Assembly: GCA_041652815.1 (NCBI GenBank)
Contig: JBAZGN010000002.1
Coordinates: 366,261-430,260, forward strand
From: Candidatus Omnitrophota bacterium
GTDB lineage: Bacteria; Omnitrophota; Gorgyraeia; Duberdicusellales; 4484-171
DNA: 64,000 bases
Direction: 5' to 3'
Shown here piece after piece: positions 1-59,042 of the stretch (positions are counted from its first letter, which is position 1; each line of letters starts with the position of its first letter). The notes beneath the pieces are model-generated. The model did not search any database, had not been told where the DNA came from, and saw only the letters and a program-made list of their open reading frames with translations. The position numbers were made by a program, and so were the translations under genes.

Positions 1-613
1 TTCTTCAGCTACAATAAGAAACGTAATGGAGACTCTGGAGAAAAAAGGGTTTCTTTCTCATATCCACACATCATCAGGGAGAGTCCCCACAACAAAGGGT
101 TTTAAACAGTACGTAGAATGTCTTAAGAAAGAAAAGATGGTAAATAATTACCCGATAGAGCTGGAATTTTATAATACAATTTCCGATAGCAGCCAGGTTA
201 TTAATAGTGCGCTGGATACTTTGGCGCTAAAAAGCGGTTATGCTTCATTTTTGGCAGTCTCTGGCGAAGGGCATAAGTTATTTTTTAGGGGCGCGCGTTT
301 TATTCTTGAGCAGCCGGAATTCGAAAACATCGTGCGGCTTAAGAGCGTTTTTTATGCTCTTGAGGTAAGATTAAATCAAATACAGGAGTTGCTACTTAAC
401 TATTTTGATGAGCAGGTAAAAATTTTGGTGGGCGATGAAATAGGTTTTGACGAAATATCGGATTGTTCGCTGGTTGTGTCTGGTTCCGGAGAAAAAAAGG
501 TTTCCTATTCACTGGCATTGCTTGGCCCGATGAGGATGGATTATGTAAGAGCTGTTTCCTGCTTGCAATCCATTAAATATCAGCTTGAAGCAATTATCGA
601 AGATAAGTTATGA
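1..613 (+). CDS. hrcA: Heat-inducible transcription repressor HrcA, C-terminal part (5' end lies off-window)
   Basis: Frame is open to the window start. VSSATIRN-like motif spans nt 2-28, then LE..G....HTSSGRVPT as in HrcA. Followed by grpE-dnaK-dnaJ. Confidence 0.8.
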
Positions 614-723
614 ACCCCGCCCTTCTAAGGCGCATTATGGTTTTTGAAAAATATAATAAATCTTACGAAAAACAAGGGTTGGGGTAAAAACAATAAATCT
701 AAAATACAAGGAGGAAGGGCGGG

Positions 724-1353
724 GTGAACGACGGTAAAGCAAAAAATAATAAAAACAACAAAGAAGAATTAGCTAAAGAAGAGAAGAAAGAAGAGCTTTG
801 CTTTCCGGTAGGCTCAGGTAAAGAAAAAAAAGAAGACTATGATGCTCTTTGGGGAAAATATACGCGGATCTGTGCGGATTTTGCTAATGCCAGAAAGCGC
901 TGGGACAGGGAAAAAGAAGACTTAATAAAATTCTCTACATCGTCGCTGATTAGAGACCTTTTAATAGTGCTTGATGAGTCAGAGCAGGCATTAAAAATGG
1001 TAAAAGAGCACGGCAATATAGAAGAAATTATAAAAGGCCTTGAAATGGCTTATAATAATTTTGTAAATCTTCTTAAAAAAAGAGGCCTTACACCTATAGA
1101 AAGTATTGGCAGGTTTTTTGACCCGCATTTACATGAAATAGTGGCAACTAAAGAAGTTGACGACTCAACAGATAAACCTATGGTTTTAGAAGAAATTCAA
1201 AAAGGTTATATGCTTGAAGATAAAGTATTACGTCCTTCAAGGGTAATTGTAGGGATTAAAAAACAGAGTACAGAGAACAGAGGGCAGAGTACAGATAACA
1301 GAGAACAGAAAACAGAAGAGGAAGAGCAAAGCCCAGAGGATAAAAAAAACTGA
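724..1353 (+). CDS. grpE: Nucleotide exchange factor GrpE
   Basis: GTG start after an AAGGAGG RBS. K/E-rich N-terminus and GrpE core. Synteny hrcA-grpE-dnaK. C-terminal low-complexity tail QSTENRGQSTDNREQ. Confidence 0.85.
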   Translation: MNDGKAKNNKNNKEELAKEEKKEELCFPVGSGKEKKEDYDALWGKYTRICADFANARKRWDREKEDLIKFSTSSLIRDLLIVLDESEQALKMVKEHGNIEEIIKGLEMAYNNFVNLLKKRGLTPIESIGRFFDPHLHEIVATKEVDDSTDKPMVLEEIQKGYMLEDKVLRPSRVIVGIKKQSTENRGQSTDNREQKTEEEEQSPEDKKN

Positions 1354-18190: not shown

Positions 18191-18745
18191 ATGAAAGCAT
18201 CAGGGTTGAGGAAAGGTTCGGTTATTAATGATAAGGGTGAACTTTGTATAGTTGTGGATATGGACCATAGAACCCCGGGCAATTACCGGGCGTGCTATCA
18301 GGTTTATTTAAAGAACCTAAAGGACGGCCGCGTTGTAAAGCAGCGTTACAATCCCGATGATGAAGTTGAAGAGGTAAGGCTTGAGGCTCAAAAGGCGCAA
18401 TACTTGTATCATGATAATAGCGGATTCCATTTTATGGATATGGAAACTTACGATACAATTATATTAAACGAAGAAATTGTAGGTGATGCCAAGAATTACA
18501 TTAAGGAAAACTCAGAAGTAACATTCTTATGCCACAACAAGAAAGCTGTTTCGCTAGATTTACCGCCGAGAGTTGACCTTCGTGTGGTGGAGGCGCCGAT
18601 AGGCTTAAGAGGAGATACAGAAGGCACAGCCAGAAAACAGATTACTCTTGAAACCGGTTTTAAGCTCAATGCCCCGCTTTTTATCAAGGAAGGAGACATT
18701 GTGCGTATAGACACGGCAACTGGCGAATACGTAGGGAGAGCTTGA
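18191..18745 (+). CDS. efp: Elongation factor P
   Basis: EF-P length and KPGKG-region architecture. Confidence 0.88.
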   Translation: MKASGLRKGSVINDKGELCIVVDMDHRTPGNYRACYQVYLKNLKDGRVVKQRYNPDDEVEEVRLEAQKAQYLYHDNSGFHFMDMETYDTIILNEEIVGDAKNYIKENSEVTFLCHNKKAVSLDLPPRVDLRVVEAPIGLRGDTEGTARKQITLETGFKLNAPLFIKEGDIVRIDTATGEYVGRA

Positions 18746-18747
18746 TG

Positions 18748-18848
18748 AAGGTTACGAATGTTACGAAAGTTACGCAGGTTACGAAGGTTACAATAAACCA
18801 CGAGGTTTTAAATGTAACTTTCGTAACTTCCCGTAACCTTCGTAACCT
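18748..18848. repeat. Hairpin element built from gttacgaa/ttcgtaac words
   Basis: Related copy at 41617-41764. Confidence 0.8.
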
Positions 18849-18870
18849 AAAGTTGATATAGCTATAACAA

Positions 18871-34376: not shown

Positions 34377-34667
34377 ATGAACCCAGCCCTTCCACATACA
34401 TATTATGTTTATCTATTGTTGTCAGATAAGGGCGGCCATATATACATTGGTTGTACGGCTAATTTGGAAAGAAGAATTAACGAGCATGAAGCAGGAAAAG
34501 TGTTTTCTGCAAAAAGATATCTTCCGATGAGCTTAGTTTATTACGAAACATATATTTCAAGAGTGGATGCGTTTAATCGTGAAAAATCACTTAAACAATA
34601 TGGTAGTGCTTTAGCAAAGTTGAAATTACGTTTGAAAGATACCTTGCAAGGAGGAAGGGCTGGGTGA
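34377..34667 (+). CDS. GIY-YIG nuclease-domain protein (YhbQ/UPF0213-like)
   Basis: YYVYLL...G.IYIGCT.NL.RR..EH motif; 96 aa. The ORF is bounded by 13-bp perfect inverted repeats. Confidence 0.8.
   Translation: MNPALPHTYYVYLLLSDKGGHIYIGCTANLERRINEHEAGKVFSAKRYLPMSLVYYETYISRVDAFNREKSLKQYGSALAKLKLRLKDTLQGGRAG
34381..34665 (+). mobile_element. 285-bp mini-element carrying the GIY-YIG ORF, bounded by perfect 13-bp terminal inverted repeats acccagcccttcc / ggaagggctgggt
   Basis: The two repeats are exact reverse complements at 34381-34393 and 34653-34665. The right end supplies AAGGAGG plus GTG for the downstream gene. Confidence 0.6.
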
Positions 34668-34996
34668 ATAGTTTATTATTAACTCCACCAATTGCATTTT
34701 TAATAATTCTATCTGTTTCTATCGCGGTTAGTTTTTCCTTTTCAAAGCTTAGCTTTAAGGGAAAGAAGAAAAGCGAGGAAAGCGGGGATTCCTACGCCTG
34801 CGGCGAAGATTTGTATGACCACATGGCCCAGCCTGACTACAGCAATTTTTTCCCTTTTGCTTTTTTCTTTACGCTTGCCCACGTAGGAACATTGATAATA
34901 GCAACTGTCCCGATAGAAACTATTAAATCATTTGATATGGCGGTTGTTTACATTATAGGTATTATCGTCGGGCTTTCGATTTTATTTAGAAAATAA
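34664..34996 (+). CDS. NuoA-like small membrane subunit (tentative)
   Basis: 3-TM protein with a YACGED motif reminiscent of NuoA/ND3 YECG. GTG start inside the element's right repeat. Confidence 0.45.
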   Translation: MNSLLLTPPIAFLIILSVSIAVSFSFSKLSFKGKKKSEESGDSYACGEDLYDHMAQPDYSNFFPFAFFFTLAHVGTLIIATVPIETIKSFDMAVVYIIGIIVGLSILFRK

Positions 34997-35001
34997 TTAT
35001 T

Positions 35002-35153
35002 AATAACCAAGTTCCAAGATACAATAACCAAATAATGACCAATAATCAAATTCCAATAACCAAACAAAAAAGGACAAAACTGTTTGGTCATTGGTTATTG
35101 GATATTGGAATTTATTTGGAGCTTGTATCTTGGTTATTGGTTATTTCGTAAGC
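35002..35153. repeat. ~150-bp hairpin element built from aataaccaa/ttggttatt words, copy 1 of 3
   Basis: Near-identical to 39451-39603 and 40335-40468. Confidence 0.85.
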
Positions 35154-35173
35154 AGGTAGTTAAATAAAAAACA

Positions 35174-39450: not shown

Positions 39451-39603
39451 GAATAACCAAGCTCCAAGATACAATAACCAAACAATGACCAATAATCAAA
39501 TTCCAATAACCAAACAAAAAAGGACAAAACTGTTTGGTCATTGGTTATTGGATATTGGAATTTGTTTGTATCTTGTACCTTGGTTATTGGTTATTTCGTA
39601 AGC
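39451..39603. repeat. aataaccaa/ttggttatt hairpin element, copy 2
   Basis: See copy 1. Confidence 0.85.
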
Positions 39604-39638
39604 ATCTTTGTTAATCTGTGTAACAAAAGGAGGAAACA

Positions 39639-40253: not shown

Positions 40254-40334
40254 AGTTATGTTGCGAAATTTCGGTTATGGTAACAGTAACGAAACTCCTA
40301 TCAGTTATGTCTAACGGCAACGCCTATGAAAATA

Positions 40335-40468
40335 AATAACCAAGCTCCAAGAAACAATAACCAAATAATATCCAATAACCAAATATCAATAACCAAACAT
40401 TTCTGTTTGGTTATTGGTCATTGGAACTTGGAATTTGTTTGGAACTTGTATCTTGGTTATTGGTTATT
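40335..40468. repeat. aataaccaa/ttggttatt hairpin element, copy 3
   Basis: See copy 1. Confidence 0.8.
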
Positions 40469-40597
40469 TTTATCTTAACGTAAACGTAACCCTAAGACGA
40501 AATTGGCATCGTAACCATAGCCATAACCGAATTCTTAATAGGCTTGTAGATAAAATTAGGAGAAATTTAAGTGAAAATCTCTGGAAGGCGTGAATAT

Positions 40598-41616: not shown

Positions 41617-41764
41617 GTTACGAAGGTTACGGATGTTACGAGGGTTACGAAAGTTACCCTTAAACCGCGTGTTTTATTGTAACCTCCGTAACTTAATTCT
41701 TCCGCCTCCGGCGGAAGAATTAACGTAACCAGACTGCCGTAGGCAGGCGCGTAACCTTCGTAAC
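41617..41764. repeat. Hairpin element built from gttacgaa/ttcgtaac words
   Basis: Related to 18748-18848. Confidence 0.8.
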
Positions 41765-41766
41765 AA

Positions 41767-41800
41767 AAAAAAGAGGAGCCAAAAAAGCTCCTCTTTTTTA
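41767..41800. terminator. Bidirectional terminator hairpin
   Basis: aaaaaagaggagccaaaaaagctcctctttttt. Confidence 0.7.
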
Positions 41801-58229: not shown

Positions 58230-59042
58230 ATGAAAAAATTGGTGAAGATACTTATAATTGCAGTAGTTATAATTTTTGTACTCTCGCTGGCTAAAGACAT
58301 AATTATTAAAATCTCAGTTGAAAAAGGAGTTGAATTTGTCACAGGCCTTAAACTAAATATAGGAAGCTTTAATGTCGGCATACTTAGGCCGATAACCGCT
58401 ATAAAAAATCTGAGATTATTTAATCCTGCTGGTTTTCCAGACAAAACTATGATTGATATGCCTGAAATTTACGTGCGCTACGACCTTCCGGCTATAATCG
58501 GCGGAAAAATTCATCTTCCAGAGGTTCGTCTTGTGCTTCGTGAATTTGTTGTCGTAAAGAATTCCAAGGGAGAACTGAATCTGAATGCTTTAAAGAGCGC
58601 GCAGGCGCAGAAAAAAGGTAAAACTCCAGAACAGAAAACAACCGGCAAAGCCCCTAAGATAAAGATAGATAAACTTGCGCTTAGCATAGGTAAAGTTATT
58701 TACAAGGATTATTCCAAAGGTGGTACTCCGGATGTGAAAGAATTCAATATCAACCTTAATGAAGTTTATACTAATGTGGACAATCCGTATACGCTGGCAA
58801 ACCTGATTGTAGTAAAAGCGCTTATAGGTACGCCTATAGCCGCCCTTGCCAATTTTGACCTTAAAGGTTTACAGGGGTCAGTCGGTGATGCTATGGCAGG
58901 CGCGCAAAAGACAGCCTCTACGGCAGCGGATAAGGCAGGCAAAACTGCAACGCAGGCAGCGGATAAGGCAGGCAAAACTGCAACGCAGGCAACGGACAAG
59001 GTGAAAGGCTTGCTTAAAAATCTTTTTGGCTCTGGTAAATAA
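58230..59042 (+). CDS. AsmA-like/DUF748-like membrane-anchored protein with C-terminal ADKAGKTATQA tandem repeat
   Basis: N-terminal TM. Resembles the partial ORF at 63067. 33-nt tandem repeat at 58926-59000. Confidence 0.45.
   Translation: MKKLVKILIIAVVIIFVLSLAKDIIIKISVEKGVEFVTGLKLNIGSFNVGILRPITAIKNLRLFNPAGFPDKTMIDMPEIYVRYDLPAIIGGKIHLPEVRLVLREFVVVKNSKGELNLNALKSAQAQKKGKTPEQKTTGKAPKIKIDKLALSIGKVIYKDYSKGGTPDVKEFNINLNEVYTNVDNPYTLANLIVVKALIGTPIAALANFDLKGLQGSVGDAMAGAQKTASTAADKAGKTATQAADKAGKTATQATDKVKGLLKNLFGSGK

What the first reader, a model, noticed from the sequence alone, without database searches (positions are those of the whole stretch)
611..728. Solo copy of the same inverted-repeat pair between hrcA and grpE, a likely footprint of the same element family
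accccgcccttc (614-625, starting right after the hrcA stop) and gaagggcggggt (714-725) are exact reverse complements enclosing 88 bp of AT-rich spacer. The right end is nearly identical to the GIY-YIG element's right end (caaggaggaagggcGgggtgaa versus caaggaggaagggcTgggtgaa) and likewise provides the RBS and GTG start, here for grpE. This suggests a family of elements that insert immediately upstream of genes and donate a start signal. This copy has lost or never had the nuclease ORF.
Basis: seen in the sequence. Interest (0 to 1): 0.6.

Follow-up and report, generated by a model that had tools for sequence, protein, structure and literature searches.

The report
Mini mobile element rebuilt grpE start
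The 110-bp stretch between hrcA and grpE is a miniature, nuclease-less copy of a very small mobile element that inserts exactly at gene start codons and rebuilds the start signal, so it sits inside operons without breaking them.

Summary
614-625 and 714-725 are exact reverse complements, and both ends match the ends of the GIY-YIG gene at 34377-34667.

It is an insertion. Four contigs from close relatives have hrcA and grpE overlapping as TTATGAACGACG with no spacer. The window has 114 extra bases: a 110-bp element (615-724) plus a second copy of TGAA.

The full-length 283-bp copy (34382-34664) is likewise absent from the nuoK/nuoA junction of relatives.

I examined 27 insertion sites in Omnitrophota genomes and metagenomes.
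- 25 are flanked by the same 4 bases on both sides (TGAA, or TGAG twice).
- At those 25 the target is R-TG-A-R, a start codon.
- A downstream ORF opens at the rebuilt GTG/ATG at 23 of the 24 sites tested.

The nuclease ORF takes both its start and its stop codon from the duplicated host target.

The window's solo belongs to a ~112-bp family also found, in tandem, at another gene junction. Other solos are in-frame internal deletions of the nuclease gene.

The closest known system is the Ssn family (single-domain GIY-YIG ssDNA nucleases flanked by hairpin repeats). The canonical Ssn hairpin motif is absent here, so I call this a new variant of a known kind. How the element moves is inferred, not shown.

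The parts
26..613 (+). 3' part of hrcA (the window starts inside the gene); stop TGA at 611-613
   Evidence: ORF list; Pfam HrcA C-terminal domain 1e-18
611..614 (+). Left copy of the duplicated 4-bp target TGAA. It contains the hrcA stop codon. With A610 it forms the old grpE start ATG, which now opens a 25-codon ORF.
   Evidence: The empty sites in L140-L143 have a single TGAA (TTATGAACGACG)
615..724 (+). The solo element itself, 110 bp: a non-autonomous, MITE-like member of the GIY-YIG element family
   Evidence: Exactly this stretch plus 4 bp is absent from four relatives' contigs (A3). It is 77% identical over its full length to a unit in L038, which sits at a different gene junction.
615..626 (+). 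Left terminal inverted repeat, CCCCGCCCTTCT
   Evidence: Covariation with the right arm across 28 distinct copies.
610..687 (+). Short ORF (25 codons, [25 protein letters not shown]) that starts at the old grpE ATG and overlaps the hrcA stop. Its first 5 codons equal the conserved MNPAL N-terminus of the nuclease family.
   Evidence: Read from the sequence; family N-terminus in A2
674..685 (+). Internal degenerate second right-end-like motif, AAGGGTTGGGGT. A similar internal motif is present in the 75-bp solo family from metagenomes.
   Evidence: Read from the sequence; compared with L024, L036, L048, L130 and L132
708..714 (+). Shine-Dalgarno-like AAGGAGG supplied by the element, 9 nt upstream of the grpE GTG
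   Evidence: The same purine-rich tract precedes the right end in all family members.
713..724 (+). Right terminal inverted repeat, GGAAGGGCGGGG. Its last G is the first base of the new grpE start codon.
725..728 (+). Right copy of the duplicated target TGAA. Its TG completes the grpE start GTG (724-726).
724..1353 (+). grpE, now starting with GTG instead of the ATG used by relatives
   Evidence: Pfam GrpE 1.5e-40; N-terminus MNDGKAKNNK versus MNDEKAKNNK in relatives
34382..34664 (+). Full-length 283-bp element with terminal repeats CCCAGCCCTTCC / GGAAGGGCTGGG, flanked by TGAA at 34378-34381 and 34665-34668
   Evidence: It is absent from the nuoK/nuoA junction of relatives L147-L149 (A7).
34377..34667 (+). 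96-aa single-domain GIY-YIG nuclease ORF. Its ATG (host A plus TG of the target) and its stop TGA (the duplicated target) both lie outside the element proper.
   Evidence: Pfam GIY-YIG 4.9e-14. Homologues keep MNPAL...GRAG termini and the motif residues Y12, Y23, G25, R33, H37 and E57.
34664..34996 (+). NuoA-like gene whose GTG start is rebuilt by the full-length element
   Evidence: Relatives start ATGAAA or ATGAGA at the same codon.

Best explanation
Positions 615-724 are a 110-bp non-autonomous (MITE-like) copy of a family of very small mobile elements bounded by inverted repeats. The autonomous form is 283 bp, and one copy lies at 34382-34664 in the same window. That form encodes only a 96-aa single-domain GIY-YIG nuclease related to the Ssn ssDNA nucleases.

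Shown: the element entered the 4-bp hrcA-stop/grpE-start overlap ATGA(A) and duplicated TGAA. The left TGAA keeps the hrcA stop. The right TGAA, together with the element's last base G, makes a new GTG start for grpE. The element also brings an AAGGAGG ribosome-binding site. The grpE protein sequence is therefore unchanged and the operon stays intact.

Shown for the full-length form: the host's old ATG and the duplicated TGA serve as the start and stop codons of the nuclease ORF. The nuclease is therefore positioned to be translationally coupled between two host genes.

Inferred: the nuclease recognises the two terminal repeats, probably paired as a hairpin in single-stranded DNA as Ssn enzymes recognise their hairpin repeats. 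It then cuts next to them and at R-TGA-R targets, and so mobilises both full-length and miniature copies in trans. Host enzymes would do the joining.
For: Insertion polymorphism:
- Four contigs from relatives (GrpE 83-93% identical) have ...TTATGAACGACG... with no spacer. The window has exactly 114 extra bp, i.e. a 110-bp element plus TGAA.
- The same holds for the full-length copy: it is absent in L147-L149, and the window has 287 extra bp.

Family behaviour:
- Full-length homologues (54-85% aa identity) sit between feoA and feoB, and between hisF and hisI, on the same strand and with 4-bp overlaps on both sides.
- Of 27 independent sites, 25 have identical 4-bp flanks. TGAG occurs on both sides in L012 and L048.
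- The left flank, which my scan did not constrain, is ATGAA (20 sites), ATGAG (2) or GTGAA (3). Nothing else within -19 to +18 is conserved.
- At 23 of 24 sites a long or contig-truncated ORF starts at the junction.
- Solos lie between operon partners: rnfE and rnfA, pta and ackA, cheB and cheC, two cobalamin methylases, and a complex-I 49-kDa subunit with an Fe-S subunit.

Non-autonomous derivatives:
- L058, L099 and L085 are in-frame internal deletions of the nuclease ORF.
- The window solo is 77% identical over its full length to a unit in L038, at a different junction.

Terminal repeats are maintained by compensatory change: 98.5% of cells are paired, 8 of 12 pairs carry double changes, and 36 cells are doubly changed against 6.3 +/- 2.1 in shuffles.

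Link to Ssn: profile-profile probability is 98.9% (E 2e-17) against GIY-YIG proteins flanked by canonical Ssn hairpins. Ssn enzymes cut ssDNA next to such hairpins, including hairpins split over two oligonucleotides (PMC11893778).
Against: - No experiment or sequence evidence shows that the nuclease moves the element. GIY-YIG enzymes are hydrolytic nucleases with no known strand-transfer activity.
- Only one full-length and one solo copy could be seen in this genome, because only the 64-kb window was available.
- The solo's interior has no significant similarity to the nuclease gene (z about 0), so descent from a full-length copy is not demonstrated for this copy.
- The canonical Ssn hairpin motif (SRM) is absent: 0 matches in the window.
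- Compensatory changes in the ends fit a protein that reads both ends equally well as they fit a hairpin.
- That every site is a start codon could be survivorship and not targeting.
- Two of the 27 sites (L010, L054) lack matching flanks.
Confidence: 0.8

Rival explanations
1. The pair is an ordinary host regulatory stem-loop in the hrcA-grpE-dnaK mRNA. It could be, for example, an RNA thermometer or attenuator that hides the grpE ribosome-binding site and start codon, with no mobile origin.
For: Folded as RNA, 601-740 forms a 13-bp terminal stem that covers part of the SD and the G of the GTG (-32.1 kcal/mol, z -2.7). The locus is a heat-shock operon.
Against: - The stem-loop is absent from the closest relatives, which have no spacer at all.
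- The same ends occur at nuo, feo, his, rnf, pta-ack, che and cobalamin loci that have nothing to do with heat shock.
- There is no Rfam family match in the window.
- There is no CIRCE operator and no terminator consensus.
- A side effect on grpE translation remains possible, but it would be secondary.
Confidence: 0.04
2. The solo is the remnant of a full-length GIY-YIG element that inserted here and then lost its interior in place. On this view it was never mobile as a mini-element.
For: Some solos elsewhere are plainly in-frame internal deletions of the nuclease ORF (L058, L099, L085). The solo keeps the first 5 codons (MNPAL) and the last 6 codons (QGGRAG*) of the nuclease ORF. In-place decay would also explain why solos lie only at start codons.
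Against: - L038 carries two tandem units of the same ~112-bp type at a different gene junction, one of them 77% identical end to end with the same length. Independent deletions would not give the same product.
- A second family, of about 75 bp, occurs at six different junctions.
- The interior shows no residual similarity to the nuclease gene.
Confidence: 0.13
3. The relatives lost the 114 bp by precise deletion between the two TGAA repeats. On this view the spacer is ancestral and the window shows the old state.
For: Deletion between 4-bp direct repeats is mechanistically possible and would leave exactly the sequence seen in the relatives.
Against: - All four relatives' contigs, from three distinct sequence types including the closest (93% GrpE identity), lack the block. 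This reading therefore needs repeated identical losses.
- The 4-bp ATGA overlap of adjacent genes is a common native arrangement.
- The same pattern of presence and absence is seen at the nuoK/nuoA site.
Confidence: 0.02
4. The inverted repeat and its likeness to the GIY-YIG gene ends are coincidence.
For: None beyond the small size of the repeat (12 bp).
Against: The 22-mer at the right end occurs twice against an expectation of 0.00. None of 100 shuffles reach the observed 12-mer count.
Confidence: 0.01

Closest known systems
Ssn nucleases with their NTS/SRM hairpin repeats (Chenal et al. 2025, Nat Commun, PMC11893778)
   Same: - Both have a ~94-96-aa single-domain GIY-YIG protein with a repeat on each side of its gene.
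- In both, many solo copies of the repeat lie elsewhere, close to genes.
- Profile-profile homology to SRM-flanked Ssn proteins is 98.9% probability, E 2e-17.
- The repeats have G+C-rich stems beginning A-Y-CCC and preceded by TC. SRM reads GTC|ATCCCCGC; the bottom strand here reads TTC|AYCCCGCC.
- The Azospirillum Ssn-type gene also sits inside an operon, between sufB and sufC.
- The Ssn authors noted the IS-like layout and showed that a hairpin split over two oligonucleotides still directs cutting.
   Different: - Here each flank carries only one arm, so the gene or an 88-nt spacer lies in the 'loop'. In Ssn a complete 20-30-nt hairpin lies on each side.
- The published SRM search motif has 0 matches in the window, against 9 in 2.2 kb around the gonococcal gene.
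- The arms lie inside the coding sequence as conserved N- and C-terminal codons.
- There is a 4-bp target duplication, there are empty sites, and insertion is at start codons. The held text of the Ssn paper reports none of these. It gives a role in natural transformation, not proven mobility.
Bacterial MITEs, such as Neisseria Correia elements and Rickettsia palindromic elements (from my own knowledge of the field)
   Same: Short (about 50-150 bp) non-autonomous elements with terminal inverted repeats and a short target duplication. They occur in many copies, sit next to or inside genes, can be co-transcribed, and alter expression signals. Rickettsia palindromic elements are tolerated inside coding regions.
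   Different: Known MITEs derive from IS elements that carry DDE or other transposases. The presumed driver here is a GIY-YIG nuclease of 96 aa. Insertion is confined to R-TGA-R at start codons, and the start codon is rebuilt.
IS200/IS605 elements and REP/RAYT systems (single-strand 'peel and paste' transposition; cited in PMC11893778)
   Same: Small elements whose enzyme recognises DNA hairpins at the ends in single-stranded DNA. They insert next to a specific 4-5-nt target, and they have solo hairpin repeats (REPs) dispersed through the genome.
   Different: The enzyme there is an HUH/Y1 transposase that forms a covalent intermediate. IS200/IS605 makes no target duplication and has separate subterminal hairpins at each end. 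Here there is one long-range pairing of the two ends and a 4-bp duplication.
Free-standing GIY-YIG homing endonuclease genes of phages (Seg proteins, I-TevI relatives; from my own knowledge)
   Same: A small selfish gene encoding a GIY-YIG nuclease is lodged between conserved genes and is present in some genomes and absent from close relatives.
   Different: Homing endonucleases carry an added DNA-binding domain and have no terminal inverted repeats and no target duplication. They spread only to the allelic site by recombination. This family occupies many unrelated sites and leaves miniature derivatives.

Membership tests
GIY-YIG nuclease superfamily (the protein of the parent element) | GIY-YIG catalytic domain with its motif residues | tested here: met
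   Pfam PF01541 at 4.9e-14, 52.8 bits against a cut-off of 22.6. Y12, Y23, G25, R33, H37 and E57 are invariant in 10 homologues. The nearest PDB relatives are the UPF0213 GIY-YIG proteins 1zg2 and 1ywl.
Ssn family (cd10448; PMC11893778) | Single-domain protein of about 94 aa with no extra DNA-binding domain | tested here: met
   The protein is 96 aa, and the GIY-YIG domain covers residues 9-75. The remainder consists of the repeat-encoded termini.
Ssn family (cd10448; PMC11893778) | Assignment to CDD cd10448, i.e. the Ssn clade and not another GIY-YIG clade | tested here: inconclusive
   No CDD models were available. As a proxy, hhalign against four SRM-flanked proteins (N. gonorrhoeae, Shinella, Azospirillum, Sinorhizobium) gave 98.9% probability, E 2e-17, score 92. 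Against UPF0213 fragments it gave 96.8%, E 3e-10, score 54. The family is therefore closer to Ssn, but at only 36-47% identity, and no tree was built.
Ssn family (cd10448; PMC11893778) | Gene flanked by SRM hairpin repeats (HGTCWY..YYVSBRH..WNVSBRG..RNCYNB) | tested here: not met
   A regex of the published motif gave 0 matches in the 64-kb window and 0 in 8 Omnitrophota and CPR loci. The positive controls gave 9, 4, 4 and 1 matches around the Neisseria, Shinella, Azospirillum and Sinorhizobium genes. Instead, one arm lies on each side of the gene.
Ssn family (cd10448; PMC11893778) | Site-specific cleavage of single-stranded DNA next to the hairpin, with no activity on dsDNA or RNA | not testable with these tools
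   This needs purified protein and oligonucleotide substrates.
MITE (miniature inverted-repeat transposable element) | Short, non-coding for a transposase, with terminal inverted repeats | tested here: met
   The element is 110 bp with 12-bp terminal repeats and no nuclease ORF.
MITE (miniature inverted-repeat transposable element) | Target-site duplication and presence/absence polymorphism | tested here: met
   TGAA lies on both sides, and the empty sites in L140-L143 have a single TGAA. Flanks match at 25 of 27 family sites.
MITE (miniature inverted-repeat transposable element) | Ends shared with an autonomous element in the same genome | tested here: met
   The full-length copy at 34382-34664 has the same ends apart from one compensatory pair.
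MITE (miniature inverted-repeat transposable element) | Multiple related copies at different sites (amplification) | tested here: met
   Two tandem ~112-bp units of the same type lie at another junction in L038, and a ~75-bp family occupies 6 junctions. These come from metagenome contigs. The copy number within this one genome could not be measured.
IS200/IS605-type single-strand transposon | HUH/Y1 transposase and no target duplication | tested here: not met
   The only ORF is a GIY-YIG nuclease, and a 4-bp flanking duplication is present.

The most novel reading that the evidence does not exclude
This would be the smallest autonomous mobile element yet seen in bacteria. It is 283 bp and encodes a 96-aa Ssn-like GIY-YIG nuclease and nothing else. 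It would target start codons (R-TGA-R) and use the host's ATG and the duplicated TGA as its own start and stop codons. It would hand the host gene a rebuilt GTG/ATG and a ribosome-binding site. On this reading, miniature copies such as 615-724, and ultimately the 20-30-nt Ssn/NTS hairpin repeats, are collapsed versions of the same element. That would give the Ssn family a mobile-element origin and a defined transposition target.
Probability: 0.4. Interest if true: 0.85.

Novelty: new variant of a known kind. Interest (0 to 1): 0.65.

Why it matters
The Ssn nucleases were described in 2025 as ssDNA-cutting enzymes with an 'IS-like' layout. The held text of that paper reports no evidence of movement.

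This locus and its relatives supply such evidence: filled and empty sites, a 4-bp target duplication, a defined target, and internally deleted and miniature derivatives.

They also show an unusual way for selfish DNA to live inside essential operons. The element inserts at a start codon, borrows start and stop codons from the duplicated target, and restores the host gene's start.

There is a practical point for annotation. GTG starts preceded by GGAAGGGCGGG, and short 'hypothetical' ORFs beginning MNPAL, mark these insertions in Omnitrophota genomes.

For biotechnology, each element names the DNA sequence that its small nuclease probably recognises.

Tried and rejected
- Rfam at gathering thresholds over the whole window gave no family.
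- A scan for the CIRCE operator (up to 3 mismatches) and for terminator and promoter consensus around the solo found nothing inside the element.
- I tested whether the solo's interior derives from the nuclease ORF. Local alignments of three ~112-bp units against eight full-length genes scored no better than shuffles (z -1.6 to +0.6). The apparent peptide likeness (KSYEKQGLG versus EKSLKQYGS) is therefore not supported.
- The published SRM regex gave 0 matches here.
- NCBIfam gave only sub-threshold hits.
- The PDB holds no Ssn structure. The best sequence matches were the UPF0213 proteins at about 3e-4.
- The protein-based scan of genome contigs returned only 12 loci, because its back-translated patterns were narrow.
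- Most of the 120 metagenome pattern hits were unrelated G+C-rich sequences and were filtered out by requiring the complementary CCCN on the left.
- The Ssn paper's supplements are not held, so I recovered a reference SsnA from a gonococcal chromosome mislabelled as a plasmid.
- Five literature searches found no prior description of GIY-YIG elements that target start codons.
- I did not run structure prediction, because the fold is not in doubt and would not separate Ssn from other GIY-YIG clades.
Full report
**1. The observation.**
The window starts inside hrcA (ORF 26-613, Pfam HrcA 1e-18). It is followed by grpE (724-1353, Pfam GrpE 1.5e-40), dnaK and dnaJ.

The hrcA stop TGA is 611-613. 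accccgcccttc is 614-625 and gaagggcggggt is 714-725. They are exact reverse complements with 88 AT-rich bases between them.

With at most one mismatch, the 12-mer occurs only here and at the two ends of a 96-aa ORF at 34377-34667. None of 100 shuffles reach the observed count.

The 22-mer CAAGGAGGAAGGGCKGGGTGAA occurs exactly twice, at 707-728 and 34647-34668, against an expectation of 0.00.

The ORF is a GIY-YIG nuclease (Pfam 4.9e-14). It lies between a NuoK-like and a NuoA-like gene.

The left ends also match (ATGAACCC[C/A]GCCCTTC).

**2. It is an insertion.**
Close relatives of this organism, an Omnitrophota MAG, were found through GrpE. Four contigs were read, with GrpE 83-93% identical.

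In all four, hrcA and grpE overlap by 4 bp as ...TTATGAACGACG... and there is no spacer.

The alignment shows exactly 114 extra bases in the window (A3). These are a 110-bp element (615-724, CCCCGCCCTTCT...GGAAGGGCGGGG) plus a second copy of TGAA (611-614 and 725-728).

The grpE reading frame and N-terminus are unchanged (MNDGK... against MNDEK...). The start codon is now GTG, made of the element's last G plus the TG of the duplicated target. AAGGAGG at 708-714 comes from the element.

The full-length copy behaves the same way. Relatives L147-L149 (NuoA-like 81-85% identical) have nuoK-TAA-A-ATGAAA with no nuclease gene. The window has 287 extra bases, which is 283 plus TGAA.

**3. The family.**
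Ten homologues of the nuclease (54-100% identity, Omnitrophota) all begin MNPAL (or a close variant) and all end GRAG.

Those codons are the inverted repeat. AAC CCN GCC CTT C is the reverse complement of G AAG GGC NGG GT. The variable repeat base is the wobble position of a Pro codon on the left and of an Ala codon on the right.

Contigs carrying homologues show the gene between feoA and feoB, and between hisF and hisI. It is on the same strand as both neighbours and overlaps each by 4 bp.

A protein-guided scan of species genomes gave 12 loci. The Omnitrophota loci have the same ends. The CPR/Patescibacteria loci have quite different but still complementary ends (TCCCACACATAA..., TCCCTCACCACTTTTAC...), which lie outside the ORF.

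After filtering it yielded 18 further solo sites of 47-135 bp with the same ends.

**4. Anatomy across 27 independent sites.**
- At 25 sites the same four bases lie on both sides. This is TGAA at most sites and TGAG on both sides in L012 and L048, which argues for a true target duplication and not an extended repeat.
- The left flank, which my pattern did not constrain, is ATGAA (20), ATGAG (2) or GTGAA (3). Nothing else from -19 to +18 carries information.
- At 23 of the 24 sites tested, a long or contig-truncated ORF begins at the last element base plus TG. Its N-terminus is MK or MN (after TGAA) or MR or MS (after TGAG).
- Elements that end in ...GGGA rebuild an ATG (L007, L008, L012). Those that end in ...GGGG rebuild a GTG.
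- The nuclease ORF's own ATG is host A plus the TG of the target. Its stop TGA is the duplicated target. The element proper carries neither codon.
- Solos lie between operon partners: two cobalamin methylases, rnfE and rnfA, pta and ackA, cheB and cheC, and a complex-I 49-kDa subunit with an Fe-S subunit.

**5. The terminal repeat is under selection.**
Over 28 distinct copies, 98.5% of cells in the 12 terminal pairs are complementary. Eight of the 12 pairs show changes on both sides. There are 36 doubly changed cells against 6.3 +/- 2.1 in shuffles (0 of 500), and sliding the register destroys the signal.

This fits pairing of the two ends. It equally fits one protein reading both ends. It does not decide between them.

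Folded as ssDNA or RNA, the centroid structure of 601-740 is just this terminal stem.

**6. What kind of solo this is.**
Some solos are plain in-frame internal deletions of the nuclease gene. An example is L058, MNPALPKNWYYVYLLKSNTRSWIYIGCTNDLEKKGRAG*.

The window's solo is different. Its interior has no significant similarity to the nuclease gene. It is 77% identical end to end to a unit in L038. That locus carries two tandem units of the same ~112-bp type at an unrelated gene junction.

A separate ~75-bp family occupies six junctions.

So this solo is best read as a member of a non-autonomous family that moves as a unit, like a MITE. It is less likely to be a copy that decayed in place.

**7. 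Comparison with what is known.**
The only close match in the literature is the Ssn family (PMC11893778). These are 94-aa single-domain GIY-YIG enzymes. They cut ssDNA next to a hairpin repeat (NTS/SRM), their genes are flanked by that repeat, and hundreds of solo repeats occur in the genome. The authors call the layout IS-like, but the text held here reports no movement.

I recovered reference proteins from a gonococcal chromosome filed as a plasmid and from Shinella, Azospirillum and Sinorhizobium replicons. All four are flanked by canonical SRMs.

The Omnitrophota family is homologous to these proteins (hhalign 98.9%, E 2e-17). It is closer to them than to the UPF0213 proteins (E 3e-10).

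The SRM motif itself is absent here, with 0 matches against 9 in the 2.2-kb gonococcal control. Instead, one arm lies on each side of the gene.

The arms resemble an SRM stem. The SRM reads GTC|ATCCCCGC, and the bottom strand here reads TTC|AYCCCGCC. The picture is therefore an SRM-like hairpin with the gene, or a short spacer, in its loop.

I file the element as working like an Ssn/SRM system and like a MITE. I do not file it as a demonstrated member of the Ssn family.

**8. Mechanism.**
Shown:
- the insertion
- the 4-bp duplication
- the R-TGA-R target at start codons
- the rebuilt start and ribosome-binding site
- the borrowed start and stop codons of the nuclease
- the existence of the non-autonomous derivatives

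Inferred:
- That the nuclease drives movement.
- That it reads the paired ends in ssDNA as Ssn enzymes do.
- That joining is done by host enzymes. A staggered 4-nt cut at TGAA in donor and target, followed by ligation, would explain both the duplication and the fixed orientation, but nothing here tests it.

Whether the restriction to start codons reflects targeting or survival of harmless insertions is open. The pentamer alone cannot explain it.

**9. Rivals.**
- A host regulatory stem-loop or RNA thermometer is excluded as the origin by the empty sites and by the same ends at unrelated operons. An effect on grpE translation may still exist.
- Decay in place is possible but less likely (section 6).
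- Precise loss in all relatives is unparsimonious.
- Chance is excluded.

**10. Verdict.**
The element is a new variant of a known kind, namely an Ssn-like GIY-YIG element with MITE-like derivatives.

In five literature searches I found no earlier description of its start-codon insertion or of its codon borrowing.

Noticed in passing
L038 (- strand, 2048-2272) and L071 (- strand, 877-997): Two tandem solo units share one TGAA. Within each unit the variable end base is mismatched (L(A)..R(G) TGAA L..R(T)), yet the outermost ends match each other. This is the order expected if a circle with an R-TGAA-L junction had recombined into a resident copy. It remains unexplained.
   Followed up: partly
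Proteins P0091, P0092, P0096, P0104, P0105, P0121 and P0129: In CPR-type relatives the GIY-YIG domain is fused in frame to the N-terminus of type IV pilin-like proteins (...G|FTLIEVL...). It occupies the position of the leader peptide that the prepilin peptidase removes. This looks like another way of inserting at a gene start without harm.
   Followed up: no
L024, L032, L036, L048, L130 and L132; window 674-685: A ~75-bp solo family carries an internal, degenerate second right end (GGAAGrGCGGGG) followed by TATAWAT, about 20 nt before the real right end. The window solo has a weaker version (AAGGGTTGGGGT). It could act as a decoy pairing partner that frees the ribosome-binding site, or as a -10-like box.
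   Followed up: no
L145 (Azospirillum lipoferum plasmid AZO_p3, 1489-1782): A canonical SRM-flanked Ssn-type GIY-YIG gene sits between sufB and sufC on the same strand. Operon-internal residence is therefore not confined to the Omnitrophota variant.
   Followed up: partly
window 35002-35154, 39452-39604 and 40332-40469: Three copies (88-96% identical) of a ~150-nt intergenic palindrome are built from AATAACCAA / TTGGTTATT-like arms. The first lies directly after the NuoA-like gene. This is a different repeat family from the one studied.
   Followed up: no
window 1263-1325 and 1352-1380: The 3' end of grpE encodes a run of ACAGAGN heptamer-like repeats (QSTENRGQSTDNREQKTEE). The intergenic DNA just after the stop codon is their imperfect reverse complement, which gives a long hairpin that spans the stop codon.
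   Followed up: no
window 18742-18791 and 41617-41657 (inverse copies at 18832-18851, 41678-41697 and 41750-41769): Arrays of a 9-nt unit GTTACGAAN occur at two distant places. Each has CGTAACCTT-type inverse copies about 60-100 nt downstream. This is a second kind of hairpin built from short tandem repeats.
   Followed up: no
window 58922-58987: A perfect tandem duplication of a 33-nt unit (GGCAGCGGATAAGGCAGGCAAAACTGCAACGCA).
   Followed up: no
L016-L018 (Moranbacteria/Parcubacteria loci): CPR copies at one shared locus have ends TCCCTCACCACTTTTACTT / AAGTAAAAGTGGTGAGGGA but no matching 4-bp flanks. The left flank reads GCGTATCA|TCCC, which is close to the 5' part of the Ssn hairpin motif (CGTCATCCC).
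   Followed up: partly
metagenome loci L035, L047, L049, L063, L098, L106, L115, L133 and others: An unrelated G+C-rich repeat, CCCTCATCCGGCCCTTCGGGCC...GGCCCGAAGGGCCGGGTGAGGG, turned up many times in soil metagenome contigs as a by-catch of the pattern scan.
   Followed up: no
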